A stretch of DNA of 64,000 nucleotides from Pseudomonadota bacterium (lineage in GTDB: Bacteria > Pseudomonadota > Gammaproteobacteria > CALCKW01): the NCBI GenBank assembly GCA_039196715.1, contig JBCCUP010000003.1, forward strand, positions 34,097 to 98,096. Reading direction: 5' to 3'. A program made the translations under genes and the position numbers. Shown here piece after piece: positions 6,102-43,116 of this stretch (positions within the stretch are counted from its first letter, which is position 1; each line of letters starts with the position of its first letter). The notes beneath the pieces were generated by a model. That model searched no databases and was not told the DNA's origin. It saw only the letters and a program-made list of their open reading frames with translations.

Positions 6102-6129
6102 GCATGGGGATCAGCGGTTGGAATTCAAG
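6102..6129 (-). promoter_or_regulatory. Sigma-32 (RpoH) heat-shock promoter for grpE
   Basis: The minus strand reads CTTGAAT-13 nt-CCCCATGC. The -35 element lies in the last codons of hrcA and the -10 element just after the hrcA stop. Confidence 0.7.
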
Positions 6130-7169
6130 GCCGCGCCGAGGATTTTCGAGGTCACGTCGACAACCGGTACCACGCGGTCGTACGCCATCCGGGTGGGACC
6201 GATCACACCGAGCATGCCGAGGACCTCCCCGTCGACCTCACAGGGGGCACTGACAAGGCTGTAGTTGTCGAGCACCTCGTGGCCGGCCTCGGCCCCGATG
6301 AACACCCGAACGCCGTCGGCACCCATGCAGCGTTCAAACAGGTGGTACATGTCGCGCTGGTTGTTGAAGGTGTCGAAAAGCGTGCGCAGGTGTTCGACGT
6401 CCGACGCCGAGTTGACGCCCATCAGGTTGGTCTGGCCCGCGACCGCGTAGTCGCCCGAGGCTTCGCGGTCGGGTGCGGCCAGCACCTGGCCCGCCACGGT
6501 GATCATGTGCTCCATCTGCGAGGCCATGTCGTCGCGCAGATCCTCGAGCGCGTCGAGCAGCCGTTTGCGCACCTCGTGCAAGCTCAGCCCGCCGAACTTC
6601 GCCGTGATGAAGCGCGCGGCGGCGGCCAGTTCCTCAGCCGAGTAGTCGCGGTCGAGGCTGACCACGCGGTTCTGCACGTCGTGGTCGTTGGTGACCAGGA
6701 TCACCAGTGCGCGCTGTTCGGAGAGCGCGACAAATTCGATCTGACGCAGGGTCTCCTCGGCCGGCCGGGGGGCAAACACCAGCCCCGCCATATGGGTCAT
6801 TCCCGAGAGGTACTCGGACGCACGGGCGATCAGTTGCTCGCGGTTCAGGTCGGCCGAGAGGTGCTGGCGCAACGCGTCCACGCTGGCGTGCTCAAGCGGT
6901 TGGTACTGGACCATGCGGTCGACGAACAACCGGTACGCCTGCTCGGTCGGCACCCGGCCGGCCGAGGTGTGCGGCGCACGCAGCAGGCCGAGTTCCTCGA
7001 GGTCGCACATCACGTTGCGGATGCTGGCAGCGCTGAGGGCGATGCCGGAGCGCTTGCTCAGGGTACGTGAGCCGATCGGTGCGCCCTCGCGGATGTACTC
7101 GTCGACCAGCGCGCGCAGGATGGCCTCCTCGCGGTCCGACAACAGCGCTTGCGGCGATTCCTCGGTCAT
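6111..7169 (-). CDS. hrcA: Heat-inducible transcription repressor HrcA
   Basis: MTEESPQALLSDREEAILRALVDEYIREGAPIGSRTL...HTSAGRVPT, the winged-helix N-terminus typical of HrcA. Start taken at the ATG at 7169. Confidence 0.92.
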   Translation of the reverse strand: MTEESPQALLSDREEAILRALVDEYIREGAPIGSRTLSKRSGIALSAASIRNVMCDLEELGLLRAPHTSAGRVPTEQAYRLFVDRMVQYQPLEHASVDALRQHLSADLNREQLIARASEYLSGMTHMAGLVFAPRPAEETLRQIEFVALSEQRALVILVTNDHDVQNRVVSLDRDYSAEELAAAARFITAKFGGLSLHEVRKRLLDALEDLRDDMASQMEHMITVAGQVLAAPDREASGDYAVAGQTNLMGVNSASDVEHLRTLFDTFNNQRDMYHLFERCMGADGVRVFIGAEAGHEVLDNYSLVSAPCEVDGEVLGMLGVIGPTRMAYDRVVPVVDVTSKILGAALNSNR

Positions 7170-7315
7170 GGTCCCGTGCTCACTTCTCAGCGCACCGTGC
7201 ACTCAGTGGGAGGGTGCCCGCTGCGCGGCAGCCGGCGTTGTCGGCGTGGCTGTTTGCCGCGCCGTCATCCCGTAAACTACACCAAAGTAATGCGCCCGAC
7301 TGACAGAATATCAAG

Positions 7316-7492
7316 ATGACTCGCCGAAAAGGGCACGCTGTACGCATTGGCAACGTCACGCTGGGTGGTGACGTCCCCGCGGTGGTGCAGTCGATGACCA
7401 ACACGGACACCGCGGACACCCTCGGAGCCGAGGCGTTTCAGCAGCTTGTCGAGGCCTACGTCGAAAACCGCTACGGCCTTGCACGCCACTGA
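7316..7492 (+). pseudogene. ispG: Stub of ispG (HMBPP synthase): only about 34 N-terminal codons recognisable
   Basis: A 58-codon ORF, below the track cutoff: [58 protein letters not shown]. The first 34 aa match the IspG N-terminus including the VQSMTNT.T.D signature. The remaining ~330 aa of the enzyme are absent. Confidence 0.6.
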
Positions 7493-8663
7493 GTCGGGAC
7501 TGACCACACCGCCGTCCGGCGATCCCCGGGCCGCGCTGGTCATCGGCGGCGGCATCGCCGGTGCCGCGATCGCACGGGCCCTTGCCGACCGCGGCAGCGA
7601 GGTCAGGGTGCTGGAAGCCGGTGACCAACCGGCACGCGGTGCCAGCGGCAACCCGCGCGCCGTCGTACGACCGGTGCTGGCGCGGAGTCGCCACGATCCG
7701 CTCGCCACGTTCTACAGCCGCGCGAGCGAACACGCGCGCCGATCCCTGGTGTTGCACCCCGATCTCGACCGCCCGAACCTCTGCTGTCTGGCGGGCGCGC
7801 ACGTCGAAACCGAGCATGCCCACGAGCTCGATTGCAGCGCACACGGTGTGACCCTCCTCGACGCGGCCAGCGCGAGTGCACGTCTCGGGCTTGACGCCCG
7901 CGCCGGGTTTTTTTTGCACGACGCCTTGACACTCGCCCCGGCCGCGCTCTGTGCCGCCCTGCTCGCTCATCCGGCGATCACACTGAGGCAAAACGCCACG
8001 GTGGCGGCACTGCAGCGAAACGGGTCGAACTGGGCAGCGCTCGACACCGCGGGACAGGTGATCGGGCGGGCGCCCACCGCCGTTGTGGCCACCGGCCCCG
8101 CTCTCGACACCCTCGCGCCGACGCTCGCACGCGCGCTGCACCGCACAACCGGCGTATCGATCCAGCACGCCCCGACACCGTCAGCGCAGCGGCCCCGTGC
8201 ATCCCTGCTCGGCCCTATGTCCTTGTCACCGACGGCGGACGGCATCGCCGTCTACGGCGGCCATTGGCGCAACAGCGAACCGCTGAAGACCCAGCTCGCG
8301 GGTCTCCCGTCGCGCTTTGCCACGCTCGTCGATGGGGCAAGCGACCACCGTGTTGTGGCACGCCTGCACACACCCGATCGGTTGCCACTGGTGGGTCCGT
8401 TGCCCGACATGGCAGCGACAGCCTCACACTTCGCGCCGCTGCGACACGGCAAACCGCCCGCGGGAGAACCGATCTACCAGCGCGACGCCTATGTGCTCGG
8501 CGCACTCGGCGGGCGCGGCATCACGTCGGCCCTCTGGTGTGCCGACCTGCTCGCGTCGGCGGTCTACGGTGCAGAACGGGCGGCGCTGCGGCCGCTTCAC
8601 CCGCTGCGTTTTCTGGTGCGTTCGCTCCGGCGCAACCTACCGCCGTACGCGACTGGACGCTGA
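7446..8663 (+). CDS. FAD-dependent oxidoreductase equivalent to the C-terminal (oxidase) domain of MnmC; start uncertain and possibly 5'-truncated
   Basis: [45 protein letters not shown] and the C-terminal [19 protein letters not shown]...LHPLRFLVR resemble MnmC residues ~260 to the end. There is no in-frame ATG upstream of the dinucleotide-binding motif; only TTG at 7446 and 7479. Confidence 0.65.
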
Positions 8664-16116: not shown

Positions 16117-17511
16117 ATGAGACTCCAACGCGCGCTGGCCGTGGCCGCATTGCTCACGGCGACCCCCACCCTGTTCACTGTCACAACGCACGCGCCGCAC
16201 GGCACTGGCGCAGCGGCTGCGGCATCCTGCCCGACCATCGACGAGCCCCGGTACGTCGACCTGTGCGCCGGTGTGGAACCGCAGTTCGGGGCGGTCCGCA
16301 TGTTGCGCCAGAAGCGACCCGCGCAGTACGAGGCGATGACCGACCCGACCTTCGGCACCACGATCCGGCGCATCACCGACGCGTCCGAGGGCGAGATCCA
16401 CAAGCCGGTGTACAGCACGATCCAGGCGTGGAACGCCGACGAGAGCTACCTGGTGCTGTATTACCAGCCCGGTGACGGGGACGGTGAACACCGGCTGTAC
16501 GACGGCCAGACCTACCGCTACGTACGCACACTCGATATCGACCCCGCCGACCTCGAAGAGGTGTTCTGGCACAACACGGACCCGGACATCCTCTTCTACG
16601 CCGAGTCCTACTACCGCAAGCTCTACCGCTACCACGTGTCGGAGCACCGCAGCGAACTGTGGATGGACTTCAACAAGGTGTGCCCAAAGGGCAACGACCT
16701 CGTCAGCGGAGGCGATGTCCACATGCCGAGCTGGGACAGCCGGTACATGGGGTTCCGCTGCGGCGGCTACAGCGACGCGGCTGCCAAGACCTACATCGTC
16801 GACCTGCAGGAACGCCTGCTGCTGAGCGTGGGCACCAGCGGGGTGGGTGACGCGGACGACGACCCCCGCGGCTACGACGCCTACTCGGCGCCGATGCCGG
16901 GGCCGTCCGGGAAGACCTACTTCTACCAGGGCGACGTGCTCGATGTGAAACAACGCAAGCTGCGCTCTCTCGCCGTCGCACAGGAAGAACACAGCTCCCT
17001 CGGTCGCCTGCCCGACGGCAGCGACGCGTTCTTCGCCGTCGGCTTCATCGACGCACCCGACAAGCGCTGCGGCGGCAGCATCGGTCAGGTCGTCGCACAC
17101 AACCTCGAAACCGGCGAGTGTTTCATCGCCCTGGGGCCCGAACAGGGCATCGGCTACCCGGCGACGAGCACGCACCACTCTGCCCTGGCCCGTGCGGCAC
17201 CGGGCTGGGTCGCGAGTTCCTCGGTGGGCGAGACCGGCCGGGATCTGATCGGCAGCTACCAGAAGATGCCCGGTCAGGAGATCTACCTGACCTACGCGGA
17301 CAAGGCCAACCCGCAACACTGCCGGGTGGCCCACCACCGCAGTTTCGGCAAGGACAACACCCGTTTGCACAACGGCTACTTCGCCGAGCCGCACGTGACC
17401 ATCAGCCCGAGCGGCACGCGGCTGCTGTTCGGCAGCGATTGGCACGGCGAGAACCGCGTCGACACCTACGTGGTCGAGTTGCCGATCCACGCAGCCTGCG
17501 CAACCCCCTGA
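16117..17511 (+). CDS. Secreted hypothetical protein, probably beta-propeller-like
   Basis: Signal peptide MRLQRALAVAALLTATPTLF. C-terminal ..HVTISPSGTRLLFGSDWHGE..VDTYVVEL resembles TolB/PD40-type blades. No confident family assignment. Confidence 0.7.
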   Translation: MRLQRALAVAALLTATPTLFTVTTHAPHGTGAAAAASCPTIDEPRYVDLCAGVEPQFGAVRMLRQKRPAQYEAMTDPTFGTTIRRITDASEGEIHKPVYSTIQAWNADESYLVLYYQPGDGDGEHRLYDGQTYRYVRTLDIDPADLEEVFWHNTDPDILFYAESYYRKLYRYHVSEHRSELWMDFNKVCPKGNDLVSGGDVHMPSWDSRYMGFRCGGYSDAAAKTYIVDLQERLLLSVGTSGVGDADDDPRGYDAYSAPMPGPSGKTYFYQGDVLDVKQRKLRSLAVAQEEHSSLGRLPDGSDAFFAVGFIDAPDKRCGGSIGQVVAHNLETGECFIALGPEQGIGYPATSTHHSALARAAPGWVASSSVGETGRDLIGSYQKMPGQEIYLTYADKANPQHCRVAHHRSFGKDNTRLHNGYFAEPHVTISPSGTRLLFGSDWHGENRVDTYVVELPIHAACATP

Positions 17512-21418: not shown

Positions 21419-22792
21419 TCAGAGCACCGGTTGCAGGGCGCGCTGCTGACGAGACTGGTTGATCAGGTCCAGGCGCGACCGCGGGTTCCAGGTGAGGCTA
21501 TACCAGGTCGCCTCTTCGTCAAACTGGCCGAGCCCGTCGGCGCCGGTGCTCTCGATGGTGTTCTCACGCCAGCCGAGGCGCGAACGGAATGCCACGGTGT
21601 GTTGCCAGGACAGGCCGACCTCGACCTCTTCCGAGACGTCCTCACGGTCCTGGGTGGACGGTGAAAACTCGAGGCTCTCGTAGGACGCGTTGGCAAAGAA
21701 ACCCAACCGCCCGGTCACGGCGTAGTTGATGCCGAAGTTCGCGCCATAGGTTGTGGTGTCGTCTGCCGGGTCTTCGAAGGTGTTCTCGGCCCACGAGAAG
21801 CCCGCCCCCATGCCCCAGATGGCACCCTGTCGGTTCAGATCGAGGCGAACGAGGTCCTCGAGAAACACCCCGTTGCCGTCGTCGAGCGTGTCGTCCTGAC
21901 CCGCGATCACGTCCGAGAGCTGCGACAACACCGAATCGGTGTAGCTCCGACCGATCTGCAGGCTCGCGCTCCAGTTTCGCGTCAGGCGTTGGTTGGCCCG
22001 CAGTTGGAAGAACAACGCCGAATCGGTGGTGTCGCTGCCGTCGTCGTTTTCGCTCACGTTATAGCTGACGCCAAGGTCGGTCTCGAACAGACCCTGCCGC
22101 GGCAGTTGGTTGGTGAGTCGAGCAAAGATGTTGTTGATGGCGTAGCCCGCACCCGGGTCGGCGTTGAGCAATTGCGTGTGTTCGATGTTGCCGCTTAGCG
22201 TCTGGCGTGCGTTGAGCCGCCGCGCGAGTGATGTGCGAGCGAGCAACAGCTCCTCGTCCGGGTCGTTCTCGTTCCAGAAGTGCAGGTAAAAGGCTTCGCC
22301 GTTCAGCGAATCCACGCTGTTGATCCGGTAGGTCAGCACAGGACCCGTGATCACCGCGTTGGACTGGTTGCGCTCATCCTCCTGCCCAAGGGCGACGAGG
22401 TCGTCCGCCGTGATGAAGTAGTAGTCGGCCAGCACCCACTTCGCCGTCGCCGGTCGGATGCGGTACTCCGCCTGAAAGCCGCCGCGCCCGGACACCTGGT
22501 CGCTCAGCACATTGTCTTCGTAGGTCGTGCCCTCGGCAAACAGCGCGAGGTCGTAGTCGAGCTTCGCTGCACGTTGCTCGCCGCGCAACGCGATGTCAAC
22601 GCTCTGCCGAATGCCCGGCACGATCGGTTCCGGGTCCACAGCCTGCTGGCTCGCTTCAAGGCTGGTGTTGGTGAGATTGGTGCTGTCAGTGATGGTGTAG
22701 CCGGCGGACACATCGAATTCCACGGCCAGCGCCGGAGACACCGTGAGTGCCAGTGCGATTGCACAACTCGGTACCGCGCGTGGAGTGGTCAT
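21419..22792 (-). CDS. Outer-membrane beta-barrel protein of the EPS locus (EpsL-like / PEP-CTERM-locus-associated type)
   Basis: Signal peptide ..ALALTVSPALA-VE, with alternating amphipathic strands rich in Y/G/D/N/T throughout. Confidence 0.7.
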   Translation of the reverse strand: MTTPRAVPSCAIALALTVSPALAVEFDVSAGYTITDSTNLTNTSLEASQQAVDPEPIVPGIRQSVDIALRGEQRAAKLDYDLALFAEGTTYEDNVLSDQVSGRGGFQAEYRIRPATAKWVLADYYFITADDLVALGQEDERNQSNAVITGPVLTYRINSVDSLNGEAFYLHFWNENDPDEELLLARTSLARRLNARQTLSGNIEHTQLLNADPGAGYAINNIFARLTNQLPRQGLFETDLGVSYNVSENDDGSDTTDSALFFQLRANQRLTRNWSASLQIGRSYTDSVLSQLSDVIAGQDDTLDDGNGVFLEDLVRLDLNRQGAIWGMGAGFSWAENTFEDPADDTTTYGANFGINYAVTGRLGFFANASYESLEFSPSTQDREDVSEEVEVGLSWQHTVAFRSRLGWRENTIESTGADGLGQFDEEATWYSLTWNPRSRLDLINQSRQQRALQPVL

Positions 22793-22795
22793 GGT

Positions 22796-23647
22796 TCAGC
22801 TCAGCTCCGCCAACGGCTCGTTGTTCAACACGGTTCCGACCAGCTTGCGTTGGTCGATGTCCTGACACGCTGCGACAATCTGCGACGTCGTGACACGGCC
22901 GTAGGGAATCACCAGCACGATGTAGTCGGCGAGGTTTGCGAGAATCTTCGCGTCGGCCGAACTCACCAGGCTCGGTGAATCAATGATGATGAAACGGTCC
23001 TTGTAGCGCTGCTTCGCTTCGGCCAGAAAGGCCCGCATGGTCGACGAGGAGAAGTACTCGACACTGCTCTGCGTGCTCGACCCGACCGGAACGATGCGCA
23101 GGCGTGGAATCCCGGACGGCCGCACCACGGACTCGATGCCGATGCTCGGGTCTGACAAGTAATCCGTCAGGCCTGTGCCGGAATCGAGGCGTGCAAGCTG
23201 CAGCACCTTGTGGAAATACGGGTTTTGCAAGTTGCAGTCGACCAACAGCGAGGTCTTGCTGTCCTCGAAGGCGATCGACGCTGCGAGGTTCATCGACACG
23301 AAGGTGCCACCGCCCTCGGGTGACACCGAGGCGATCATCATGCTGAAGTTCTCACCGCGCCGCAGGCCGAGAAGCCGCGTGCGCAGCTCGCGAAACGTGT
23401 CGACCAGGCGGCGGTTCTGCGACTGCGGGTGAATGATCTTCATGAAGTCGAGTTGCTCGGGCGAGAACAACCGGGGTTCTTGCATGAGCATGATCGACCG
23501 CGACGTGGACACCGGGTCGTGTGCGACCGACCGGCGCTTGATGCGCGCGAGGTCGCGGCCACTGGAGCGCAAGCGCGCGCGCCGCTCGGCGAGTTCGTCG
23601 CGCGCCGTCGGACGCTGGGTCGAGCGATTTCTACGAATGAAAGACAT
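22796..23647 (-). CDS. BY-kinase-like P-loop protein (EpsG-like) with degenerate Walker A
   Basis: ..MMIASVSPEGGGTFVSMNLAASIA..SLLVDCNLQNP...FIIIDSPSL aligns with the Walker A / A' / B motifs of polysaccharide co-polymerase kinases. The ATG at 23647 shares one base with the upstream TGA (TGATG). Confidence 0.8.
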   Translation of the reverse strand: MSFIRRNRSTQRPTARDELAERRARLRSSGRDLARIKRRSVAHDPVSTSRSIMLMQEPRLFSPEQLDFMKIIHPQSQNRRLVDTFRELRTRLLGLRRGENFSMMIASVSPEGGGTFVSMNLAASIAFEDSKTSLLVDCNLQNPYFHKVLQLARLDSGTGLTDYLSDPSIGIESVVRPSGIPRLRIVPVGSSTQSSVEYFSSSTMRAFLAEAKQRYKDRFIIIDSPSLVSSADAKILANLADYIVLVIPYGRVTTSQIVAACQDIDQRKLVGTVLNNEPLAELS

Positions 23648-25182
23648 CAGAGAATTCCACCTGTCCAGCGAATCCAACCAGCAAGCATATACACCACGAT
23701 CACGCCGGCAATCACCGACCCGAGGATCAGCGGGCTGGTCAGAATGTTACCAATTTCGCCCTTGACCCTGGCGTGTGGCACGACCGCGAGCACCGGCAGC
23801 CCGAGGTTGTTTTGCAGCGCACTGGGCAAGCGCAGTTTCGGGTCGAGGTAGAGCAAGCCGAACAGCGCGCCGAGCGGCAACAGGATCGCGAGAATCGGGC
23901 CCACAATGCCGAAGTGCAGGAAACGCAGGCCTTTGGGCAGGTTCGGCAATTGGGCTGGCTCCTGGATCTTGACCGCCGAGCCCTGGCGTTTCTCGTCGAG
24001 GTTCATCGACACGCGCGCGCTCTCCCGCCGGCGCAGCATTTCCTGGTAGATCTCCTGGTCGACCTGGTAATCGCGCTGCAAATCCGCAAGCTTGGCGCCA
24101 AACTCGTTCGACGACGCCGCCCGTTCGCGTTCTTTCACGAACAGCGCGCGCTGCTGCTGCAAACGGGCGCGCAACGAGGAGACCGCCGTCTCCGCGCCGG
24201 AGAGCTGCTGGCGCAAGCGTTGGTATACCGGGTTGATCGACGACTGTTCCTGCACTTGCTCGTCGCTCAAGCGGGTTTCACGCTCGTTGGCTGCGAGCTG
24301 CCGCAGGTCGGCGATCTGCTGTTTCAGGCGGACGATGTCAGGGTAGGTGTCGGTGTAATCGAGTCGCAACCGGTCGATTTCGTTCTGCATGCCCGCAATC
24401 TGCTGCTGAAACTGCGACTCGCGAAAATCCTTGACTGCGGTGACCGACTCGCTCTGCAACTGACGTGCGAGCGACGCGCGCCTTGCCTCCGCCTCGCTCA
24501 GTTCGAGCTGGGTGATGTCGATGTTGCGGCGGAGCTCGATAAGTTCTTCGTCGATGTCGACGGCGTTTGCTGCGACACCCTCGCCAAAGCGCGTGCGAAA
24601 CTCGCGCAAGCGCGCCTCCGAAGCGGCCAGCTTCCGACGGTAGATATCGACCTGGTTCTCGATGAACTCGAACGCGTCGTTCGACTCGCGCGTCTGCTCG
24701 CGCACACTGCGCTCGACGTAGCGATCTCCGAACTGCTTGGTCACGCGGTAGGCACGCACCGGATCGACGTCCTTGTAGGACACCATCGTGAGGTTGCTGC
24801 CGAGGTTGCTGACCGTGGTCTGGCGGTAGAGGTCGATGCGCGCCAGTTCCATCTGGGTCGGGTTGTTGACGTCCTTGGCGAGGCCATTCGTGACGATCAC
24901 GTCGTCGACGATGTCACGGGAGAAGATGATCTCCCGCGCGATGGCTTCGCTGTCCGCCACCTGGGTCTGCGCAGTGGCACCCTCAAGGATCGGGGCAATG
25001 ACATTCTGGTTGTCGGCGAAGATCGTCACCGAGGACTCGAACTTCGGTTTGTAGAACCACCCCAGCACGAGCATCAGAATCGCGATCACCGCAAACGCCA
25101 CGGTGAGTGCACCGCGGCGAGCAATGATTTCGCGATTGAACATCGCAATCCATTCTTCAGTAAACATCTCAGACAGATTCAC
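23647..25182 (-). CDS. Polysaccharide chain-length determinant (Wzz/PCP family, EpsF-like)
   Basis: N-terminal TM (ALTVAFAVIAILMLVLGWF), a long coiled-coil region, and C-terminal TM segments. Confidence 0.85.
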   Translation of the reverse strand: MNLSEMFTEEWIAMFNREIIARRGALTVAFAVIAILMLVLGWFYKPKFESSVTIFADNQNVIAPILEGATAQTQVADSEAIAREIIFSRDIVDDVIVTNGLAKDVNNPTQMELARIDLYRQTTVSNLGSNLTMVSYKDVDPVRAYRVTKQFGDRYVERSVREQTRESNDAFEFIENQVDIYRRKLAASEARLREFRTRFGEGVAANAVDIDEELIELRRNIDITQLELSEAEARRASLARQLQSESVTAVKDFRESQFQQQIAGMQNEIDRLRLDYTDTYPDIVRLKQQIADLRQLAANERETRLSDEQVQEQSSINPVYQRLRQQLSGAETAVSSLRARLQQQRALFVKERERAASSNEFGAKLADLQRDYQVDQEIYQEMLRRRESARVSMNLDEKRQGSAVKIQEPAQLPNLPKGLRFLHFGIVGPILAILLPLGALFGLLYLDPKLRLPSALQNNLGLPVLAVVPHARVKGEIGNILTSPLILGSVIAGVIVVYMLAGWIRWTGGIL

Positions 25183-31137: not shown

Positions 31138-31198
31138 TGCGAATCATTCTCGTTTAGCCTACCATCGCGCCTAAACAGGTTTTAGTACACTGCCGGTC

Positions 31199-31456
31199 AT
31201 GAGCCAAGACGACACTGCAGCCCACCTGCGCCTCGCCCGGCGCCTGATCCGTGTCTACGCCCACGCCCCGGACAACGACACGGCGAGCGACGTCGCGGAC
31301 GCGTTCGAACGCTGCCTTGATTGCCCGCTGAAGTCCCTGCGCCTGCGGTGCTGCCTGCGTCGCGAAGCAAAGCGCTGGCGCGCACTGAGCGACCGGTGTG
31401 ACAGTGCGCACGACGCGCCGCCTGACGCGCCGCCCCCGCCCCTGACGCTGCACTGA
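31199..31456 (+). CDS. Hypothetical small protein (85 aa)
   Basis: The only support is an open frame with strongly G/C-biased third positions in the gap between GIY-YIG and nagZ. No family recognised, and competing antisense ORFs exist. Confidence 0.3.
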   Translation: MSQDDTAAHLRLARRLIRVYAHAPDNDTASDVADAFERCLDCPLKSLRLRCCLRREAKRWRALSDRCDSAHDAPPDAPPPPLTLH

Positions 31457-31467
31457 CAGCACCGGCG

Positions 31468-32517
31468 CTAGGGCGTCGCCGCGCTCTCCTGCCAGGCACG
31501 GTCAAGCGTCTGGATACGCGCGGCGTCGCCCACGTGAACGTTCGCCGCCCGACTCGCCGAGCGCTGCCGCAGTGCGTCGACGCGCCGCGCGCGGGCGTCC
31601 TGCTCGCCGACATCCCGCAACCCGTCCAACAGCGTGGCGACGGCCCCAGGTCGTTGACAGCTGAGGATCAGATCACAGCCCGCCGCGAGCGCAGCCTCGG
31701 CCGAGGCGACAATGCCTCCGGGCATGGCCGCCGCTGCCATGCTGAGGTCGTCGCTGATGATCAGTCCGGCAAAACCCAATTGCTGCCGCAGGACGCCCTG
31801 CAGCCACCGTCGAGAGAAGCCCACTGGTCGGTCATCGATCGCCGAAAAGCAGACGTGGGCGGGCAACACACCGTCAATTCCCGCGCGCACCAGGGCCTCG
31901 AAGGGCGCCGCATCGCGCTCACGCAGCGTGTCCCAGGGACGGGGGTCCACGGCCTGTGCCGTGTGAGTGTCCTCGACGACCCCACCGTGACCGGGGAAAT
32001 GCTTCGCCACCGCACCGAGTCCGCCGGACTGGATGCCCTGAACGACGGCGGCCGCCAGCGCCGTGGTCACGGCCGGATCCGCCGAGAAGGCGCGGCTGCC
32101 AATCACCGAACCGCCGCCCTGAAGATCGACCACCGGCGCGAGATTGACATCGACACCGACCGCAGCAAGCTCCTGCGCCATGACGCGGCCAACCGCGGCG
32201 GCGGTCGCAATCGCTTCGTCCGGGTCACGGCCGTGGAGCCAACCCAGGGCCGCCGCGGGCGGCAACGCGCTGAAACCGTCGCGAAAGCGTTGCACGCGTC
32301 CACCCTCGTGGTCGACCAACACCAGCGGGTGCACGCCATGGGCGGCACGGCAGTCTGCGATCAGGGCCCGCAGCTGCGCCGGATCCGCGTAATTGTGCCG
32401 AAACAGGATCACCCCGCCGACCAGTGGATGCGCAAGCATGTCGCGCTCCTCCGCGCTCAGTTCGAGCCCGACAGGGTCGAACGCGAGCGGCCCACGCCCA
32501 GCTCGGCGCGCGATCAC
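31468..32517 (-). CDS. nagZ: Beta-N-acetylhexosaminidase NagZ (GH3)
   Basis: GGVILF..N......L......LVLVDHEGGRVQRF...KHFPGHG...ISDDLSM. The GTG start overlaps the ispF stop (GTGA). Confidence 0.92.
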   Translation of the reverse strand: MIARRAGRGPLAFDPVGLELSAEERDMLAHPLVGGVILFRHNYADPAQLRALIADCRAAHGVHPLVLVDHEGGRVQRFRDGFSALPPAAALGWLHGRDPDEAIATAAAVGRVMAQELAAVGVDVNLAPVVDLQGGGSVIGSRAFSADPAVTTALAAAVVQGIQSGGLGAVAKHFPGHGGVVEDTHTAQAVDPRPWDTLRERDAAPFEALVRAGIDGVLPAHVCFSAIDDRPVGFSRRWLQGVLRQQLGFAGLIISDDLSMAAAAMPGGIVASAEAALAAGCDLILSCQRPGAVATLLDGLRDVGEQDARARRVDALRQRSASRAANVHVGDAARIQTLDRAWQESAATP

Positions 32518-32995
32518 GCAGCCGGTTCGCGCAGGGTCACGACGGCAAACGCCGAAATGCCCCCGGCGCGTCCGCTGAAACCGAGCCGGTTGCTGGTGGT
32601 GGCCTTGACAGTGACAGAGCGCCGATCAAGGCCGAGGCCTGCCGCCACGGTCACCGCCATCGTCTCGGTGTGCGGCGCGCGCGTGGGCGCCTTGGCAGCC
32701 ACGGAGACGTCGGCGTTGTGGCATGCCAGGCGACGTCTGCCACGCGGTCGACAACCGAGCGCAACAGCATGCGGCTGTCTGCGCCACGCCACTGCGGATC
32801 GGTGTCGGGCACATGCTGGCTGATGTCACCAAGCGCCGCAGCGCCGAGGACCGCGTCGGCCAGGGCGTGCACGGCTTTGTCACCGTCGCTGTGGGCCACG
32901 AATCCCGGGTGAAACGGCACGCGCACGCCGCAGAGCATCGGGTGATCGCCCGGGCCGAGGGCCTGCACGTCAAAACGGTGTCCTGCGCGAATCAC
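32514..32995 (-). pseudogene. ispF: ispF (MECDP synthase) interrupted by a frameshift
   Basis: N-terminal ~85 codons are in ORF 32651..32995 ([45 protein letters not shown]). The rest is in ORF 32514..32792 (..[15 protein letters not shown]...VTVKATTSNRLGFSGR.GGIS). The frames join with a 1-nt gap near 32731..32740. Confidence 0.8.
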
Positions 32996-33618
32996 CGAGC
33001 GCCTCCTGCGGGTTCGTCGGTTTGATGCTCGAGCATAGACGCTGCCAGCGCGAGGTCGCCGGGCCGCGTGACCGGGATGTTGTCATCCCGGCCCGCCACC
33101 ACCAACACCCGGTGACCGGCCCGTTCCATCGCCGAGGTATCGTCGCTCACCGCCACGCCGTCGCGCCTCGTCAACCCGCCTGATCGTGCCGCGCACGGGC
33201 GACGCGGGCGTACCGCCGTCGGCGTCCGATTCACGCACGGCCTGCAGAAGCCGCTGCACACCGGCGAGCGCGACGCACGGGCACTCGGCGTCGTGCACCA
33301 ACACCCAGCTCGTCGCAGGCTGGTCAGCCAGCGCATCGAGCAGGGCCAACACCGAGCTTGCCCGATCGACGCCACCCGAGACCGTCTCGACCCCCGGCCA
33401 CCGGCGCACAACGGTGCCCGGGTCGTTCGGCGCAAAGGCCACCAGCGTGCGTTCGACGCCGCGGGGCAACGCGTGGTGTGCTCGAGGGTGTGGGCGATGA
33501 CCGTGCTGCCGCGCAACGCGGCGCACTGTTCGGGGCGTTCCCCGCCGGTTCGGGCACCGTGTCCCGCAGCGAGGATCAGCGCGATCACGGGTTCAAGGCG
33601 AGGCGTCGCGTCACTCAC
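32992..33618 (-). pseudogene. ispD: ispD (MEP cytidylyltransferase) with two frame changes and an internal deletion
   Basis: The ends match IspD in the frame of ORF 32992..33618. The middle third (GVERTLVAF..SWVLVHDAECPC..PASPVRGTIRRVDEA) is in the frame of ORF 33083..33526. About 40 residues between the PVR..T and (I/V)(T/S)D(E/D).SA.E blocks are missing. Confidence 0.8.
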
Positions 33619-33892
33619 CCGACGCGGCGGTGTCGTCCAGGAGCTGAAAGAACACTTCGTCTTCGCGGATCATACCGAGTTCGGTGCGGGCGATCTCCTC
33701 GACTGCATCGAGCCCGGATTTGAGATCGTTGACCTCGGCGAACAGCGCGCGATTGCGTTCGACCAGGCGCTGCGTCTCCTGCCGCTTGTCGTCAATCTGG
33801 TCGCGCAGCTGCCACACTTCCTGGACGCTGCCCTGCCCGAACCAAAGCTTGTATTGCAAGCCTGCAATCAGGGCCAGGGCGATGAAGGTCAT
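33611..33892 (-). CDS. ftsB: Cell division protein FtsB
   Basis: MTFIALALIAGLQYKLWFG.GS...........Q...L..RN..L..EV.DLK.G.DA.EE.AR.ELGM. ATG at 33892 (the track start is a TTG six codons upstream). Confidence 0.88.
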   Translation of the reverse strand: MTFIALALIAGLQYKLWFGQGSVQEVWQLRDQIDDKRQETQRLVERNRALFAEVNDLKSGLDAVEEIARTELGMIREDEVFFQLLDDTAASGE

Positions 33893-33934
33893 GGCGCGCA
33901 CGGGCGTCAACTCGTCAGTTCCACTCGGCGCACA

Positions 33935-35248
<1,314 letters not shown>

Positions 35249-36154: not shown

Positions 36155-37843
<1,689 letters not shown>

Positions 37844-37856
37844 TTACCACAGCCCG

Positions 37857-39188
37857 CTAAGTCGCTCCAACGAAATCAGCCCGCCTGAAGGCGTGGTCGA
37901 CGCCGAGCTGCTCGACCCAGGCGAGCTCGCCGTCGATATACAAGTACGGCAAGGCCGGGCGCTGCCACGCCGGCACGCCAACGGCGTTGAGCAGCTTCTT
38001 GACCCGGGCTCGTGACCGGCGCGGCGGCTTGAGCAAGGCACTGCCGCACGCGAAGCGGACCTGCCAGCGCCGGTGCAGGTGAGCGCGATCGAGCCCGTCG
38101 GCGAGCACCGTGTCGGCGTGCAACACCTGCCCGGTGGGCAAGGCCAGTGGTTGCGAGGGGTCGGACCACTCGAGGGAGGCACCGGTGTCGAAGACCGGGA
38201 CATCCGGCGCCGCGTGCAGTCGTCCCCGGTGCCGCCGCACCGTGAGGCCGCCCACCCGCAGCGCCGGCTGCGCATCCGCACGGGCCCCGGCGACTTCCGT
38301 GCGCAACCGGTCGAGGGTCGCGCGCGACGGCACCGGCACCCCGTTCCGGTTGAGCCAGCGGTGGAGCAGCGTGCGCGCGTGCGCGGGCGACGCCCGCGCG
38401 AGCAACGCCACTGACACTGTTTCAGCCGCCCCGTCTTGCGCGAGCAGCCCGTCCGCGTGCTGATCGAGCACCAGCGCAGCATCGTCGAAGTTGGCCGCCG
38501 CGGTGCCGATCGAGCGCGACAGTGACGGCCACCGCGCGCGCAGCTGGGGCAGCACGCACTGGCGCAGGAAGTTCCGGTCAAAGCGCGGGTCGGCGTTGCT
38601 CGGGTCTTCGACCCAGGCGAGGCCCTCGGCCTGCGCGACCGCCGCTATCTCGTCGGCTGTGACGCTCAGCCACGGTCGCCAGAGCACACCCGAGCCAAGC
38701 GGCCGCGTCGCTGGAATGCCGGCTGCCCCGTGCGCGCCACTGCCGCGCAGCAACCGCAGCAGCACCGTCTCGGCCTGGTCGTCGGCGTGGTGCGCTTGCA
38801 GCAACACCGCGCCCGGGGGCAGGTGATCGGCGAAGGCGCGGTAGCGCGCTGCACGAGCCGCCGCCTCGAGCCCCTGCCCGTCCGGCTGCACCGCGACCGC
38901 AAGGACCGTGCATTCCACGCCGAGTTCGGCGCAGACGGCCTCGCAGTGCACCGCCCAGTGCCCCGCCGCCGGCTGCAAGCCGTGGTTGATGTGCAGGGCC
39001 GACACAGCCGTGGCGGAGGACGCGAAACACGCGACGACCGAGGTCAGCAAGGTGTGGGAATCCCGGCCTCCGCTGTAGGCCACGACAACCCTGTCGGCGT
39101 CTGGCCAGTGCTGCGGCAGGCGCCCGATCAGGGCGCGCAGCCGCGCGGCGAGGGCCTCGGTGTCAGCCGTCGAACTGCCCGTAGCCAC
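37857..39188 (-). CDS. tilS: tRNA(Ile)-lysidine synthetase
   Basis: PP-loop [15 protein letters not shown]. The start is proposed at GTG 39188, 24 nt inside the accA 3' end. The 81 upstream codons of the track ORF lie antisense-frame over accA and are rejected. Confidence 0.85.
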
Positions 39189-40119
39189 GCAACCTAGCCC
39201 GGCGACGGGTGATGAGTTCCTCGATGGGCATGTCGACGAGATCGTCGAGGTTGCGCACCAGCGAGGCCCGCAAGGCGTTGCTCGCACCGTCAAAATCGCG
39301 GTGTGCGCCGCCAAGCGGTTCCTCGATGATCTCGTCGATGAGATCGAGTTCCTTGAGGCGACCCGAGGTGATGCCAAGCGCGGTTGCCGCGTCGCCGGCT
39401 TTCTCGGCACTCTTCCAGAGGATCGATGCACAGCCTTCGGGCGAGATCACCGAGTAGGTGCTGTACTGCATCATGTTGACGCGGTCGGCCACGCCGATCG
39501 CGAGCGCACCGCCCGAGCCGCCCTCGCCAATGACCGTGGCGACGATCGGCACCTTGAGTTCGCTCATGACGAAGAGGTTGCGGGCGATGGCCTCGGACTG
39601 GTTGCGCTCCTCGGCCTGCACGCCCGGGTACGCACCGGTGGTGTCGATCAGGGTCACGACCGGCAGCGCGAAGCGCTCGGCCATTTCCATCACACGCAGC
39701 GCCTTGCGGTAGCCCTCGGGTTTGGGCATGCCGAAATTGCGCCGCAGTTTTTCCTTGGTGTCCCGACCCTTCTGCTGGCCGATGATGGCGACCGAGCGGC
39801 CCTCGAGGCGACCGATGCCGCAGACCATGGCCTCGTCGTCGGCGAAGTGCCGATCGCCGTGCAGCTCGTGGAAATCGGTGAAGACCGACTGGATGTAGTC
39901 GAGCGCGTAGGGGCGCAAGGGGTGCCGCGCCAACTGCGACACCTGCCAGGGCGTGAGCTTGCCGAAAATGCCCTCGGTGAGCGTCACGAGCTTGCCCTGC
40001 AAGCGGGTGATCTCCTCGTTGAGATTGATGTCCACGTCGGCTGTGGCGATCTTGAGCTCGCGGATCTTGGCGTCGAGCTCGGCGATCGGTTGCTCAAATT
40101 CGAGAAAATTCGGATTCAT
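39163..40119 (-). CDS. accA: Acetyl-CoA carboxylase carboxyltransferase subunit alpha
   Basis: [22 protein letters not shown]...; full-length AccA. Confidence 0.97.
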
Positions 40120-40185
40120 GCTTCAATTGTACCGTGCGGTTGACACCGTGTCCGCTGCACACGCGATTTCCGCCCGCGTGGCGGA

Positions 40186-40878
40186 GTGCCCGAGACCACA
40201 GCGCGTGCGCCCGCCGGCGTGCGCGGCCGACCAGGAATCCCCACACCCTTGAACCGAGCCAGTGCCAAGCCCGACCCGGGCACCGTTCACCGTCCGATCC
40301 TGTGTGCCTGCCTGCTGTTTCTGGGCGCGCTCGCCACCCTGCCCGTCCGCGCCGAGCAACCCGGGCTCACGCACGGCCGCCTCGCGACATCGGCGGCCAT
40401 CTCCCCGAGGAGCGTTGAACTCGGCGCGCGCTACGCAAGGGATTTCAGTTACCTTGGCGCGCGCTACAACGCGCGCGTGAGCGACCGTACCACGGCGTTC
40501 ATCGACCTCGGGTCGACCCGCTTTGACGGCGCATCCCCGGCCAAGACCGTCGGTGCCGGCGCATACTACTACTGGGGTCCGATCAACCACTGGCTGGATT
40601 TCGCCGCCCGGGCCGCTGTGCACCACATCGCCGGCCGCAGCGACACCACCTTTCTCGGCTTCGACGCACTCTTCAGCAGCGTACACCTGCAGGCGCTGCC
40701 GGCCCGGTGGCAGTGGTACGCCAGCGTCGGCCTGTACCGGCCGCTGAACCGCAGCGACTCGCCCAAGTTGGGCTTGTCACTCGGGCTGGTCAAGCCCACA
40801 TCGCGAGGCCAGGTCTTTGTTGGCTACGACGCCGACGATGCCGCTGTCGCCGCCGGCTATCGGCTGCGCTGGGACTGA
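40186..40878 (+). CDS. Hypothetical small outer-membrane beta-barrel-like protein; start uncertain
   Basis: Signal peptide ILCACLLFLGALATLPVRA-EQ, then alternating Y/G/A-rich strands ending ..AAGYRLRWD (aromatic C-terminus). The true start is probably internal (for example TTG 40249). Confidence 0.5.
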   Translation: MPETTARAPAGVRGRPGIPTPLNRASAKPDPGTVHRPILCACLLFLGALATLPVRAEQPGLTHGRLATSAAISPRSVELGARYARDFSYLGARYNARVSDRTTAFIDLGSTRFDGASPAKTVGAGAYYYWGPINHWLDFAARAAVHHIAGRSDTTFLGFDALFSSVHLQALPARWQWYASVGLYRPLNRSDSPKLGLSLGLVKPTSRGQVFVGYDADDAAVAAGYRLRWD

Positions 40879-40986
40879 TTCCCTGGCACGGTCGGGGCGC
40901 CGTACGGGCGACCTGTGTGGTCCGGTGACGCGCGGTCCGAGGCTTGCATGAGGTGCTGTGCGCGCTGAGCGCTTTCGAGACCGATC

Positions 40987-43116
40987 ATGCAGCCTTCACA
41001 CCTGCTCGCGGCCCGCTGTGTCGGGCTTCTTTTCGCGGCCCTGGCCCACCTCGCCAGTGCGTCGCCCACCCCGCCCCCCGACCAACAGGCTGCACTGCAG
41101 GCGTTGTACACCGCGACGTCCGGCGCCGACTGGGTTGACGCCGACGGCTGGTCCGCCAGCGAGACGATCGCCTGCGACGCGACCGGCATCACCTGTGACG
41201 CAAACGGCAACGTGCTTGAGATCTTTCTCGTCGACAACGGCCTGAACGGCCCCCTGCCGTCGAGCTTGCCGGCCCTGCGCACGTTGCGCGGACTGGTGCT
41301 CAACCGTAACAGCCTCACCGGCACGGTGCCGACACAGTGGGCCGACTTCGAGACGCTGCAGCTGCTGTCCTTGCGCGACAACGCGCTCGAGGGGGCACTG
41401 CCGACCGGGCTGGCCGAGGTTGAGTCCCTCAAGGTGCTGGATCTCTGCCACAACCACTTCAGCGGTGAGGTGCCCTTGGCCTACTACGGGATGCCGGCGC
41501 TCAACACGCTGGCGCTGTGCCACAACCGGCTGTCGGGCACCCTGCCCGCCGGTTTGCGCACCGGGGAGCTCGTCGATCTCGACCTCAGCCACAACCAACT
41601 GAGCGGTACGTTGCCCGTCACACTGTTCGACGCGCCGTCGCTCTGGCGACTCCACCTGGCGGGCAACGGGTTCACCGGGGCACTGCCACAGCCGAGCGCA
41701 GCAGACCCGGCCGTGGTGGACATCGACCTCTCCGACAACGCTCTGTCCGGTGAGCTCGAAGACACCTGGGCGCGCTTTGCCAACCTCACATTCCTGCGGC
41801 TGGCCCGCAACCGTTTCGAGGGCGCGGTCCCGACCGCGCTCGGTCATCTCGACACCCTTCGACGCCTCGATCTCGCCGGCAACCGCCTGGTCGGCACCCT
41901 GCCCGCCGCGCTGGCAGCCCACCCGGTCCTGCTGGCTGCGACGCGGTCCGGCGATCCGTCGATCGCGCTCGACTGGAACGCCGTGGCGCTCGATGGCGTC
42001 GACCCGGACTGGGTCGACGCCATCGGCATCGACCGCACTCGCCTGGTCCGCCCGGTGAGCGGCGTCCGGGTGGTGGAGACGGCAGACGGCGGCTGGCAGG
42101 TGAGTTGGCAGCCAGCTCCGCTGTCCGGCAACCTGACGGGCCACTACCGGGTCGAGACAGCGCTGGGCGACACCGTGGCTGAAACCGCGTCGCTCGACGC
42201 TGCACGCGCCACGGTGCCGGCGAGCGCGGCGGTCGATCCGGCCGGCCTGCGCGTGGTCACGGTGGTGCCGACACACGCACTCAACCCCAACACGGTCCTG
42301 AGCGCCGGCGCACGCCCGGGAGACAGCACCACCGCGCGGTGGGCGCCGCCTGAGACCGTGAACCACCCGGCCAACTTCGGCCCCTACGACAGGGCGGACT
42401 GGACACAACGTCCGGCGGGCACCACGCTTCGAGTCGCCTCGGTCGCCACGCCAGCGCTCTTCCACGTGCCGCCGCACATCGACGCTGACGGGCGCCTGCA
42501 GTTCACGCCGTCGGGAACCCCGGGCCGAAGCCGCGTCACGGTTGACGCGCTGGACGCCAACGGCCGCTACCAGGCGAGCTTCGACATCGTGATCGGTCCG
42601 GCAGCCAACCGCGCACCGAGCTTTGTCGCCGGCCCGGACCTCACCGTGCTGCAAAGCGGCCAGATGCAGGTTGTCGAGTGGGCCTCGGCGCTCGACGACG
42701 GCGACGGCGGCACGCAGTCGATGCGCTTCGTGATCGACACCGAGCAGGCGGACTGGTTTGCCTTCGCACCCGACCTCAGCGTGCCATCGGGCACCTTCCG
42801 GTTTCGCGTCAACGCCGGTCGGACCGGCGAGATCACACTCCGCATTCGGCTGCGCGACGACGGTGGCACCGACAACGGCGGGTCCGATGAGAGTGCCGAG
42901 CACACACTGCGCATCACGGTGACCGAGGACGCCTCTGCGGTGGCCGGCAGCGGCCTGTCGTCAGATGGCACCGTCGGGTCGGGCGGTGGTGCGCTGGGTC
43001 TGTTGACGCTGTGGTGGGCCACAGGGCTCGTGGCGGCACGACGCTCAGTAGTGCGGCGGCACCTCGTGCCCGGTCGACTCCGCGGCGGTGCCGCCCGCCG
43101 ACAGCTGCTCGCGTAG
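40987..43116 (+). CDS. Secreted leucine-rich-repeat protein (24-residue plant-specific-type LRRs) with Ig-like C-terminal region and GlyGly-CTERM-like tail
   Basis: Signal peptide, a cap-like segment (QQAALQALY..W.....W......C...GITCD..GNV), about 10 repeats of L..L..L.L..N.L.G.LP, then ..GSGGGALGLLTLWWATGLVAARR followed by 23 further codons. Confidence 0.85.
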   Translation: MQPSHLLAARCVGLLFAALAHLASASPTPPPDQQAALQALYTATSGADWVDADGWSASETIACDATGITCDANGNVLEIFLVDNGLNGPLPSSLPALRTLRGLVLNRNSLTGTVPTQWADFETLQLLSLRDNALEGALPTGLAEVESLKVLDLCHNHFSGEVPLAYYGMPALNTLALCHNRLSGTLPAGLRTGELVDLDLSHNQLSGTLPVTLFDAPSLWRLHLAGNGFTGALPQPSAADPAVVDIDLSDNALSGELEDTWARFANLTFLRLARNRFEGAVPTALGHLDTLRRLDLAGNRLVGTLPAALAAHPVLLAATRSGDPSIALDWNAVALDGVDPDWVDAIGIDRTRLVRPVSGVRVVETADGGWQVSWQPAPLSGNLTGHYRVETALGDTVAETASLDAARATVPASAAVDPAGLRVVTVVPTHALNPNTVLSAGARPGDSTTARWAPPETVNHPANFGPYDRADWTQRPAGTTLRVASVATPALFHVPPHIDADGRLQFTPSGTPGRSRVTVDALDANGRYQASFDIVIGPAANRAPSFVAGPDLTVLQSGQMQVVEWASALDDGDGGTQSMRFVIDTEQADWFAFAPDLSVPSGTFRFRVNAGRTGEITLRIRLRDDGGTDNGGSDESAEHTLRITVTEDASAVAGSGLSSDGTVGSGGGALGLLTLWWATGLVAARRSVVRRHLVPGRLRGGAARRQLLA

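What the first reader, a model, noticed from the sequence alone, without database searches (positions are those of the whole stretch)
32992..33618. ispD at its conserved ftsB-ispD-ispF position is a decayed gene: two frame changes, ~40-codon deletion, catalytic substitutions
Seen in sequence. The 208-codon ORF matches IspD only at its ends: VIALILAAGHGAR..STVIAHTLEH at the N-terminus and [36 protein letters not shown] at the C-terminus. The middle third (GVERTLVAFAPNDPG..SWVLVHDAECPC..GGTPASPVRGTIRRVDEA) is read in another frame (ORF 33083..33526). Switch 1 lies in CACACCACG at about 33472-33480. Switch 2, at about 33157-33164, coincides with loss of the ~40 residues that in E. coli IspD separate PVRDTMKRAE from ITDEASALE (the TVDR..LW..TPQ block). 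Residues I recall as catalytic are also replaced: PKQY becomes PEQC (Lys27 equivalent) and HDAARP becomes HDAECP (Arg109 equivalent). More than 45 other genes in the window read cleanly in one frame, so random sequencing error is an unlikely cause. ispF next door and an ispG stub at 7.3 kb are also damaged, so every MEP-pathway gene visible here is eroded. Inference: isoprenoid precursor supply has moved to a mevalonate pathway, or to replacement ispD/ispF/ispG copies (for example a fused ispDF) elsewhere. That would be unusual for a gammaproteobacterium with this otherwise standard gene order. The start/stop couplings (GTGA with ispF, 8-nt overlap with ftsB) are preserved, which suggests the decay is relatively recent.
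Basis: partly seen in the sequence, partly recalled or inferred. Interest (0 to 1): 0.8.

Follow-up and report, generated by a model that had tools for sequence, protein, structure and literature searches.

The report
Dead MEP-pathway genes ispD, ispF, ispG
In this marine-type gammaproteobacterium, three genes of the usual bacterial route to isoprenoid building blocks (ispD, ispF, ispG) are genuine wrecks at their ancestral positions while all close relatives keep them intact, so the cell must get these essential precursors another way that the window does not show.

Summary

**ispD (32992-33618, minus strand).** It matches IspD in three pieces, frame A, then B, then A. It lacks the block equivalent to E. 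coli residues 147-179. It has lost both catalytic lysines (K27E, K213P) and R109.

**ispF (32514-32995).** It has one frameshift near 32736 and H10Q.

**The "ispG stub".** This is a 58-codon ORF (7316-7492) made of the IspG N-terminus fused in frame to its C-terminus, an internal deletion of about 348 codons.

**Relatives.** Seven or more related lineages have the same gene order with intact ispD and ispF. Two more distant ones have full ispG beside hrcA.

**Rate of change.** On the window's branch, ispD and ispF changed at 21-22% of sites that are invariant in five relatives. The seven flanking genes changed at 1% (P = 4e-16).

**Independent assembly.** A Logan assembly of run SRR22824306 covers 31159-33569 with 8 mismatches and no gaps.

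**Conclusion.** The MEP pathway is broken at three or more steps. What replaced it could not be tested, because the rest of the genome was out of reach and the window has no mevalonate genes. The candidates are a mevalonate pathway (most likely), foreign second copies, or uptake. Loss of MEP genes after pathway replacement is a known kind of event, so interest is moderate.

The parts
32992..33618 (-). ispD pseudogene. The whole relic is one open 208-codon frame from the native GTG start to the native TGA stop, but only its two ends are in the IspD frame.
33478..33618 (-). ispD N-terminal segment in frame A (P-loop region). Carries P13L, K27E and Y29C in E. coli numbering.
33471..33480 (-). ispD frame switch 1, inside CACACCACG. 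By length comparison with relatives it is a net +2 (or -1) nt.
33164..33469 (-). ispD middle segment in frame B, part of ORF 33083-33526 (Pfam positions 44-139). Carries A108E, R109C, L133P, D139G and K142R.
33155..33165 (-). ispD frame switch 2 and deletion junction. About 104 nt are lost, removing the counterpart of E. coli residues 147-179 (T154-L178 of the conserved columns).
32992..33153 (-). ispD C-terminal segment, back in frame A (Pfam positions 174-220). Carries K213P.
32514..32995 (-). ispF pseudogene. PF02542 positions 1-90 are in ORF 32651-32995 and positions 88-154 are in ORF 32514-32792. There is a one-nucleotide loss near 32735-32738 and a premature stop at 32651-32653. Substitutions: G6R, H10Q, F12L, V39K, G58S, F61V, T97S, E135N and A147S.
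7316..7492 (+). ispG relic, a 58-codon ORF. Codons 1-36 are the IspG N-terminus and codons ~37-54 are the IspG C-terminus. The junction lies near 7418-7426, and about 348 codons were deleted in frame.
33611..33901 (-). ftsB, intact (96 aa as called in the public record). It overlaps the ispD start by 8 nt.
31468..32517 (-). nagZ, intact. Its GTG start overlaps the native ispF stop (GTGA). It is the downstream gene of the same transcription direction.
6111..7202 (-). hrcA, intact. It is divergent from the ispG relic, as in relatives L087 and L091.
7446..8663 (+). Stand-alone MnmC1-type FAD oxidoreductase directly after the ispG relic, as in L087 and L091. The start codon is uncertain.

Best explanation
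ispD, ispF and ispG are unitary pseudogenes. They are the ancestral single copies, still at their ancestral places, and each was inactivated by its own lesions after selection on the whole MEP pathway was lifted in this one lineage.

**Shown**
- The lesions themselves.
- Loss of catalytic residues.
- A roughly 20-fold excess of changes at conserved sites, equal in ispD and ispF. This fits one common release of constraint.
- Intact orthologues in all sampled relatives.
- The same indels in an independent assembly.

**Consequence**
No CDP-ME, MEcDP or HMBPP can be made from these loci, so the MEP route is dead unless other copies exist.

**Inferred**
- The organism still needs isoprenoids. The window encodes an intact undecaprenyl-phosphate-dependent sugar transferase, an O-antigen-ligase-type protein and cell-wall genes. 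IPP and DMAPP must therefore come from elsewhere.
- My estimates for the source: a horizontally acquired mevalonate pathway about 0.6, foreign second copies of the MEP genes about 0.15, uptake from a host or community about 0.1.
- The relics probably persist because they sit inside transcription units whose downstream genes (nagZ; the mnmC1-like gene) are still needed. The ispG and ispD relics both keep native start and stop in one open frame, which would limit polarity.
For: **Lesions and frames:**

**Conserved-column test:**
- IspD breaks 24 of 53 columns, against at most 7 in 34 other sequences.
- The breaks include K27E, R109C and K213P.
- IspF breaks 9 of 53, including H10Q.
- K27 and K213 are critical in E. 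coli IspD (PMC5020098).

**Lineage-specific acceleration:**
- Private substitutions number 11 of 185 columns in ispD and 16 of 155 in ispF, against 12 of 2285 in seven flanking genes. Fisher P = 3.8e-16.
- Siblings show no such excess.

**Relatives:**
- ispD and ispF are intact in L081-L086, L097, L099 and L101, with identical synteny.
- Every other syntenic gene in the window matches in one frame.
- ispG sits beside hrcA and before the mnmC1-like gene in L087 and L091. The window ORF matches both ends of IspG.

**Independent assembly:**
- Logan contigs of SRR22824306 include L104, which is 99.67% identical over 2411 nt with 0 gaps.
- Its gene calls reproduce the 114-aa IspF fragment.
- All four nagZ differences are silent.

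**Coding signature:** the codon-position GC pattern is kept in the homologous frames.

**Literature:** a census found no species with a substitute for IspG or IspH (PMC10663253). MVA genes occur in some gamma-proteobacteria by transfer (PMC6107057).
Against: - No mevalonate gene, second ispD/ispF/ispG or ispDF fusion is in the 64 kb, so the replacing route is pure inference.
- The other four MEP genes (dxs, dxr, ispE, ispH) were not seen at all.
- The frame-corrected IspF still scores 157 bits against solved IspF structures, so its decay is moderate.
- The polarity argument is weakened by ispF, whose frameshift causes termination 134 nt before nagZ.
- Only one sample (SRR22824306) is known to contain this organism.
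Confidence: 0.8

Rival explanations
1. Sequencing or assembly error: the genes are intact in the cell, and the indels are artefacts of the assembly.
For: Frameshifts in single assemblies are a common artefact. The record is probably a metagenome-derived contig.
Against: - An independent Logan assembly of SRR22824306 has the same sequence across 31159-33569. It differs at 8 substitutions and has no gaps, so it is a slightly different haplotype with the same indels.
- Errors do not replace K27, R109, K213 and H10, remove 34 codons, delete 348 codons of ispG in frame, or raise amino-acid change 20-fold in just two genes.
- Sixteen or more neighbouring genes are clean.
Confidence: 0.02
2. Replacement by foreign MEP genes: the MEP pathway still works with horizontally acquired ispD/ispF (for example a fused ispDF) and ispG located elsewhere. 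The native copies became redundant and decayed.
For: - Bifunctional IspDF exists in other bacteria (model NF006899; PDB 1w55; PMC10663253).
- Redundancy is the usual road to pseudogenes.
Against: - It needs three separate native genes at two loci to be replaced. One mevalonate operon would free all of them at once.
- ispD and ispF show the same degree of decay, which fits a single release of constraint.
- No second copy is in the window.
- MEP genes are reported as rarely transferred compared with MEV operons (PMC13001223).
Confidence: 0.15
3. No pathway of its own: the organism has neither MEP nor mevalonate genes. It takes isoprenoid precursors from a host or from neighbours, as Rickettsia does.
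For: - About 2.6% of surveyed species have neither pathway (PMC13001223).
- Rickettsia parkeri depends on host isoprenoids (PMC6854040).
- A secreted leucine-rich-repeat protein gene has been inserted in this lineage. Such proteins are often tied to interaction with eukaryotes.
Against: - The window looks like a large, GC-rich (about 66%), unreduced genome. It has intact chaperone, nucleotide, lipid, exopolysaccharide, transport and two-component genes and no other pseudogenes.
- Known cases are obligate intracellular bacteria with reduced genomes.
- Relatives come from ocean metagenome assemblies, judged from record names (my reading of the names).
Confidence: 0.1
4. New function: the open 208-codon ORF and the 58-codon ispG fusion ORF are kept because their products do something new.
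For: Both relics keep the native start and stop in one open frame.
Against: - In DNA of about 70% G+C, an open wrong frame of about 105 codons is expected roughly one time in eight (my estimate).
- The middle of the 208-aa product is out-of-frame sequence with GC2 = 0.86, unlike coding sequence.
- No exact copy of either product exists in 15 billion proteins.
Confidence: 0.03

Closest known systems
Bacteria with a complete mevalonate pathway plus an incomplete MEP pathway (Listeria species; some Streptococcus and about half of Enterococcus species; PMC13001223)
   Same: MEP genes are lost or left incomplete in a lineage whose relatives or ancestors had the full pathway. This is interpreted as pathway decay after an alternative became available.
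   Different: - Those are Firmicutes, and the mevalonate pathway is documented in them.
- In Listeria the retained part runs as far as MEcDP and may have a signalling role.
- Here ispD and ispF, the steps before MEcDP, are dead too. The relics are still visible as pseudogenes. The alternative route has not been seen.
Gamma-proteobacteria carrying horizontally acquired mevalonate genes (Hoshino and Gaucher 2018, PMC6107057; Coxiella and Legionella from my own knowledge)
   Same: The same bacterial class, and mevalonate genes arrive by transfer into a MEP-using group.
   Different: No mevalonate gene was found in the window. I know of no report of MEP pseudogenes left at their ancestral positions in such lineages.
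Rickettsia: no MEP and no mevalonate pathway, with scavenging of host isoprenoids (PMC6854040)
   Same: Loss of MEP-pathway function while isoprenoid-dependent processes continue.
   Different: Rickettsia is an obligate intracellular alphaproteobacterium with a reduced genome. The window shows no general gene decay.
Ordinary bacterial unitary pseudogenes
   Same: Frameshifts, internal deletions, loss of catalytic residues, faster protein evolution, and intact orthologues in relatives.
   Different: Three genes of one essential pathway at two loci are affected, with equal decay in two of them. The cause is therefore at pathway level, not gene level.

Membership tests
IspD, functional MEP cytidylyltransferase (PF01128 / TIGR00453) | Full-length match above the curated cut-off in one reading frame | tested here: not met
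   TIGR00453 scores 55.4 and 53.7 bits for the two ORFs, against a cut-off of 181.3. The match is split over two frames.
IspD, functional MEP cytidylyltransferase (PF01128 / TIGR00453) | Catalytic lysines equivalent to E. coli Lys27 and Lys213 | tested here: not met
   K27E and K213P. Their role is taken from PMC5020098.
IspD, functional MEP cytidylyltransferase (PF01128 / TIGR00453) | Segment equivalent to E. coli residues 147-179, with conserved T154, R157, W161, T165, P166 and Q167 | tested here: not met
   Absent: Pfam positions 140-173, PDB alignment, and 11 conserved columns deleted.
IspD, functional MEP cytidylyltransferase (PF01128 / TIGR00453) | Descent from the ancestral ispD (orthologous position ftsB-ispD-ispF) | tested here: met
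   The same order accA-tilS-pyrG-kdsA-eno-ftsB-ispD-ispF-nagZ is found in 7 or more relatives.
IspF, functional MEcDP synthase (PF02542 / TIGR00151) | Full-length match above the cut-off in one frame | tested here: not met
   97.6 and 48.7 bits for the two ORFs, against a cut-off of 116.45. There is a frame change between profile positions 88 and 90.
IspF, functional MEcDP synthase (PF02542 / TIGR00151) | Zinc ligands Asp8, His10 and His42 (E. coli numbering; their role is from my own knowledge, not checked in a paper here) | tested here: not met
   D8 and H42 are kept but H10 is Gln. H10 is at least 90% conserved in 30 other sequences.
IspG, functional HMBPP synthase | Full-length protein of about 370-410 aa with the TIM-barrel and Fe-S domains | tested here: not met
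   Only 58 codons remain. They match IspG residues 1-36 and about 385-401 of 406.
Unitary pseudogene | Disabling lesions in the only local copy, at the orthologous position | tested here: met
   Whether other copies exist elsewhere in the genome is not testable here.
Unitary pseudogene | Relaxed constraint on the lineage's branch | tested here: met
   21-22% of otherwise invariant sites changed, against 1% in flanking genes. P = 3.8e-16.
Unitary pseudogene | Lesions reproducible in independent data | tested here: met
   Logan contig L104 has 0 gaps over 2411 nt. The ispG locus was not covered by an independent contig.
MEP-to-mevalonate pathway replacement | Mevalonate-pathway genes in the same genome | not testable with these tools
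   None are in the 64-kb window. The rest of the 159,231-bp contig and of the genome is masked or out of reach.
MEP-to-mevalonate pathway replacement | State of the remaining MEP genes (dxs, dxr, ispE, ispH) | not testable with these tools
   They are not in the window.

The most novel reading that the evidence does not exclude
A free-living-type marine gammaproteobacterium with a large, GC-rich genome has neither a working MEP pathway nor a mevalonate pathway. It lives on isoprenoid precursors taken from other organisms, or it makes IPP by a route not yet described.
Probability: 0.1. Interest if true: 0.85.

Novelty: new member of a known kind. Interest (0 to 1): 0.5.

Why it matters
Isoprenoid precursors are essential for cell-wall carrier lipids and quinones. 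The MEP pathway is both an antibiotic target and an engineering target, and IspG in particular is regarded as irreplaceable within it.

This locus catches the pathway in the act of being discarded. The relics are still readable, and intact versions exist in all sampled relatives. That gives a dated, lineage-specific case for studying what makes the MEP pathway dispensable.

If the genome has a mevalonate operon, this is a clean natural example of pathway replacement in a gammaproteobacterium. If it has none, it would be a rare case of isoprenoid auxotrophy outside obligate intracellular bacteria.

It also warns that presence/absence surveys based on domain hits with E below 1e-10 would score ispD and ispF as present here.

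Tried and rejected
- **Exact look-ups of window proteins.** They found nothing, because the source record is masked. Only Logan contigs of the same run could be reached, by guessing gene-caller start codons.
- **Metagenome scan with HrcA.** It found only relatives at 56% identity or less. That was enough for ispG synteny but too distant for DNA-level breakpoints.
- **Literature searches for the accession numbers SRR22824306, JBCCII, GCA_039028355, ERZ6863480 and SRR12730523.** They found nothing, so the habitat and taxonomy of the source remain unknown beyond Gammaproteobacteria.
- **Literature search for IspF zinc ligands.** It found no usable paper.
- **Mevalonate-enzyme protein search.** I considered querying the protein database with a mevalonate enzyme and decided against it, because hits cannot be tied to this genome.
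- **dN/dS.** Not attempted, because synonymous sites are saturated between the window and its nearest relatives (about 80% nucleotide identity even in enolase).
- **Programmed frameshifting.** Rejected, because the catalytic residues and a 34-codon block are gone.

Full report
**What is in the sequence**

On the minus strand the window carries eno (33935-35221), ftsB (33611-33901), a 208-codon ORF (32992-33618), two overlapping ORFs with IspF similarity (32651-32995 and 32514-32792), and nagZ (31468-32517).

- Pfam IspD matches the 208-codon ORF only at profile positions about 1-43 and 174-220.
- Positions 44-139 are matched by a different frame, ORF 33083-33526. Positions 140-173 are matched by nothing.
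- NCBIfam agrees. Neither piece comes near the equivalog cut-off: 55 and 54 bits against 181.
- tblastn with E. coli IspD and phmmer against solved structures give the same picture. In one search, E. coli IspD 1i52 aligns at residues 6-146 and 180-227.
- The first frame change lies in CACACCACG at 33471-33480. The second lies at about 33155-33165.
- By length comparison with relatives, the first is a net +2 nt and the second a loss of about 104 nt. The relic is therefore 34 codons short and back in its original frame at the native stop.

The only adjustment is that the missing block is 33-34 residues rather than about 40.

**ispF and ispG**

ispF has PF02542 positions 1-90 in one frame and 88-154 in another. 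Comparison with relatives places a one-nucleotide loss near 32735-32738. In the first frame translation stops at 32651, which is 134 nt before nagZ.

The "ispG stub" is more interesting than a stub:
- It is a 58-codon ORF (7316-7492, plus strand).
- Its first 36 residues match the IspG N-terminus (E = 6e-10 and 1e-11 against IspG of two relatives).
- Its residues about 37-54 match the last residues of IspG (385-401 of 406; E = 4e-4 and 2e-4).
- It is therefore ispG with a single in-frame internal deletion of about 348 codons.
- In relatives L087 and L091, full-length ispG lies at the same place. It is divergent from hrcA and, in both, followed by the same FAD oxidoreductase.
- That oxidoreductase is a stand-alone MnmC1-type enzyme in the window.

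**Is it real?**

Four lines of evidence say yes.

*Line 1: conserved residues.* I aligned 35 IspD and 31 IspF sequences taken from fetched loci plus E. coli.
- The frame-corrected window IspD breaks 24 of the 53 columns that are at least 90% conserved. Of these, 13 are substitutions and 11 are deleted. The worst of the other 34 sequences breaks 7.
- The substitutions include P13L, K27E, Y29C, A108E, R109C, D139G, K142R and K213P.
- Lys27 and Lys213 of E. coli IspD stabilise the transition state (PMC5020098).
- IspF breaks 9 of 53 columns, including H10Q. His10 is a zinc ligand by my own knowledge. I found no open paper to cite for this.

*Line 2: lineage-specific acceleration.* I built six-taxon alignments of the window and five relatives.
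- In the seven flanking genes the window has 0-5 private substitutions per gene, 12 in 2285 columns in total.
- In ispD it has 11 in 185 columns, and in ispF 16 in 155.
- Its siblings have 0-2 in ispD and ispF.
- The excess is 16-fold, with P = 3.8e-16. The siblings show none.
- Of sites invariant in the five relatives, 21% (ispD) and 22% (ispF) have changed, against 1.0% in flanking genes.
- The equal decay of the two genes fits one common release of constraint.

*Line 3: the neighbours are clean.* All 29 syntenic proteins of two relatives other than IspD and IspF match the window in a single frame at near full length. Pfam finds ordinary full-length domains in some 45 further ORFs.

*Line 4: an independent assembly.* Logan contigs of run SRR22824306 come from the same organism.
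- One contig equals window 37338-42313 exactly.
- Another covers 31159-33569 with 8 substitutions and no gap. This is a slightly different haplotype with the same frame changes and the same deletion.
- Its gene calls reproduce the 114-residue IspF fragment.
- The four differences in nagZ are all silent.

The homologous frames of the relics also keep the codon-position GC signature, whereas the wrong frame of the ispD middle has GC2 = 0.86.

**Relatives**

A protein search with enolase found lineages at 75-91% identity. Their contigs carry accA-tilS-pyrG-kdsA-eno-ftsB-ispD-ispF-nagZ in the same order, with intact ispD (232-249 aa) and ispF (157-162 aa). They are:
- three ENA or NCBI assemblies;
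- two Logan assemblies;
- NCBI MAG GCA_039028355.1;
- a 326-kb contig;
- a complete 4.29-Mb genome.

The window and its four nearest relatives are about equidistant. The loss is therefore specific to the window's lineage. No closer relative is available to date it more finely.

**How it most likely works**

*Shown.* Three MEP genes at two loci are dead. From these loci the cell cannot make CDP-ME (IspD), MEcDP (IspF) or HMBPP (IspG).

*Established background.*
- A census of 4,400 genomes found no species that appears to replace IspG or IspH (PMC10663253).
- About 12% of bacteria use the mevalonate pathway, 2.4% have both pathways and 2.6% have neither (PMC13001223).
- Mevalonate genes occur in some gamma-proteobacteria through transfer (PMC6107057).
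- Rickettsia lives on host isoprenoids (PMC6854040).

*Inferred.*
- The organism still needs polyprenyl phosphates. The window holds an intact Bac_transf sugar transferase, a Wzy_C protein, a polysaccharide export protein and cell-wall genes.
- Its precursors therefore come from elsewhere.
- One acquired mevalonate operon would free all MEP genes at once, which fits the equal decay of ispD and ispF. I put this at about 0.6.
- Foreign second copies of the three genes (about 0.15) and uptake (about 0.1) remain open.
- The window contains no mevalonate gene and no second MEP gene. I could not reach the rest of the genome.

*Why the relics persist.* This is also inference. ispD and ispF lie between ftsB and nagZ with overlapping start and stop codons. 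The ispG relic precedes the mnmC1-like gene. Clean removal would risk the expression of needed neighbours. The ispG relic (in-frame deletion) and the ispD relic (two compensating shifts) both remain open from native start to native stop. The ispF frameshift does not fit this neatly.

**Comparison with what is known**

- These are homologues by descent of IspD, IspF and IspG, but they fail every functional membership test that could be applied.
- As a phenomenon, this belongs with lineages that carry an incomplete MEP pathway next to another isoprenoid source, such as Listeria and some Streptococcus and Enterococcus (PMC13001223).
- It differs in taxon. It also differs in that the steps before MEcDP are dead, so a signalling role for MEcDP cannot explain retention.
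- It further differs in that the wrecks are still readable.
- I rate it a new member of a known kind.

**Verdict**

- The pseudogene interpretation is supported.
- The claim about what replaced the pathway is untested.
- "Recent" is only relative: about a fifth of the constrained sites have already changed.
- Interest is moderate (0.5). It would rise sharply if a complete genome showed neither pathway.

Noticed in passing
window 40987-43116 (+): A 709-aa secreted protein with plant-type leucine-rich repeats. It has an N-terminal signal peptide and a Gly-rich, hydrophobic, then basic tail that resembles a GlyGly-CTERM sorting signal. Its LRR part resembles Xanthomonas type III effector LRR domains, well below their cut-offs. 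In relative L085, slyX sits directly next to the 210-aa gene, so this gene is an insertion in the window's lineage.
   Followed up: partly
window 7316-7492 and 32992-33618: Both the ispG relic (in-frame deletion) and the ispD relic (two compensating frame changes) stay open from the native start to the native stop. This could be chance, or selection against polar effects on downstream genes. The ispF relic does not follow the pattern.
   Followed up: no
window 31159-33569 versus L104: The Logan contig of the same run differs at 8 positions: 33139, 32950, 32949, 32182, 31966, 31926, 31921 and 31171. The sample therefore holds at least two haplotypes. The four nagZ differences are silent. ispF has an adjacent GG to CC change.
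   Followed up: partly
window 7446-8663 (+): A stand-alone MnmC1-type FAD oxidoreductase (TIGR03197, 197 bits, above its cut-off) without the MnmC2 methyltransferase half. It follows ispG in this clade.
   Followed up: partly
L081 9857-10588; L101 10080-10817; L099 11079-11828: A PNP_UDP_1 nucleoside phosphorylase gene follows nagZ in some relatives. It is absent at that place in the window, L084 and L085.
   Followed up: no
L098 481-2136: One relative's enolase is called as 551 aa with a repeated Enolase_C hit on a 2.6-kb contig. This is probably an assembly artefact or a local duplication.
   Followed up: no
window 37857-39200 (-): tilS is far less conserved among these relatives (about 50% identity) than its neighbours accA and pyrG (about 90%).
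   Followed up: no
window 16117-17511, 21419-25182: Several long ORFs in and near the exopolysaccharide cluster have no Pfam or NCBIfam match: 464, 457, 293 and 511 aa. The 464-aa protein has homologues at 90% identity or more in an NCBI MAG (MEM7378069.1) and in a Logan assembly.
   Followed up: no
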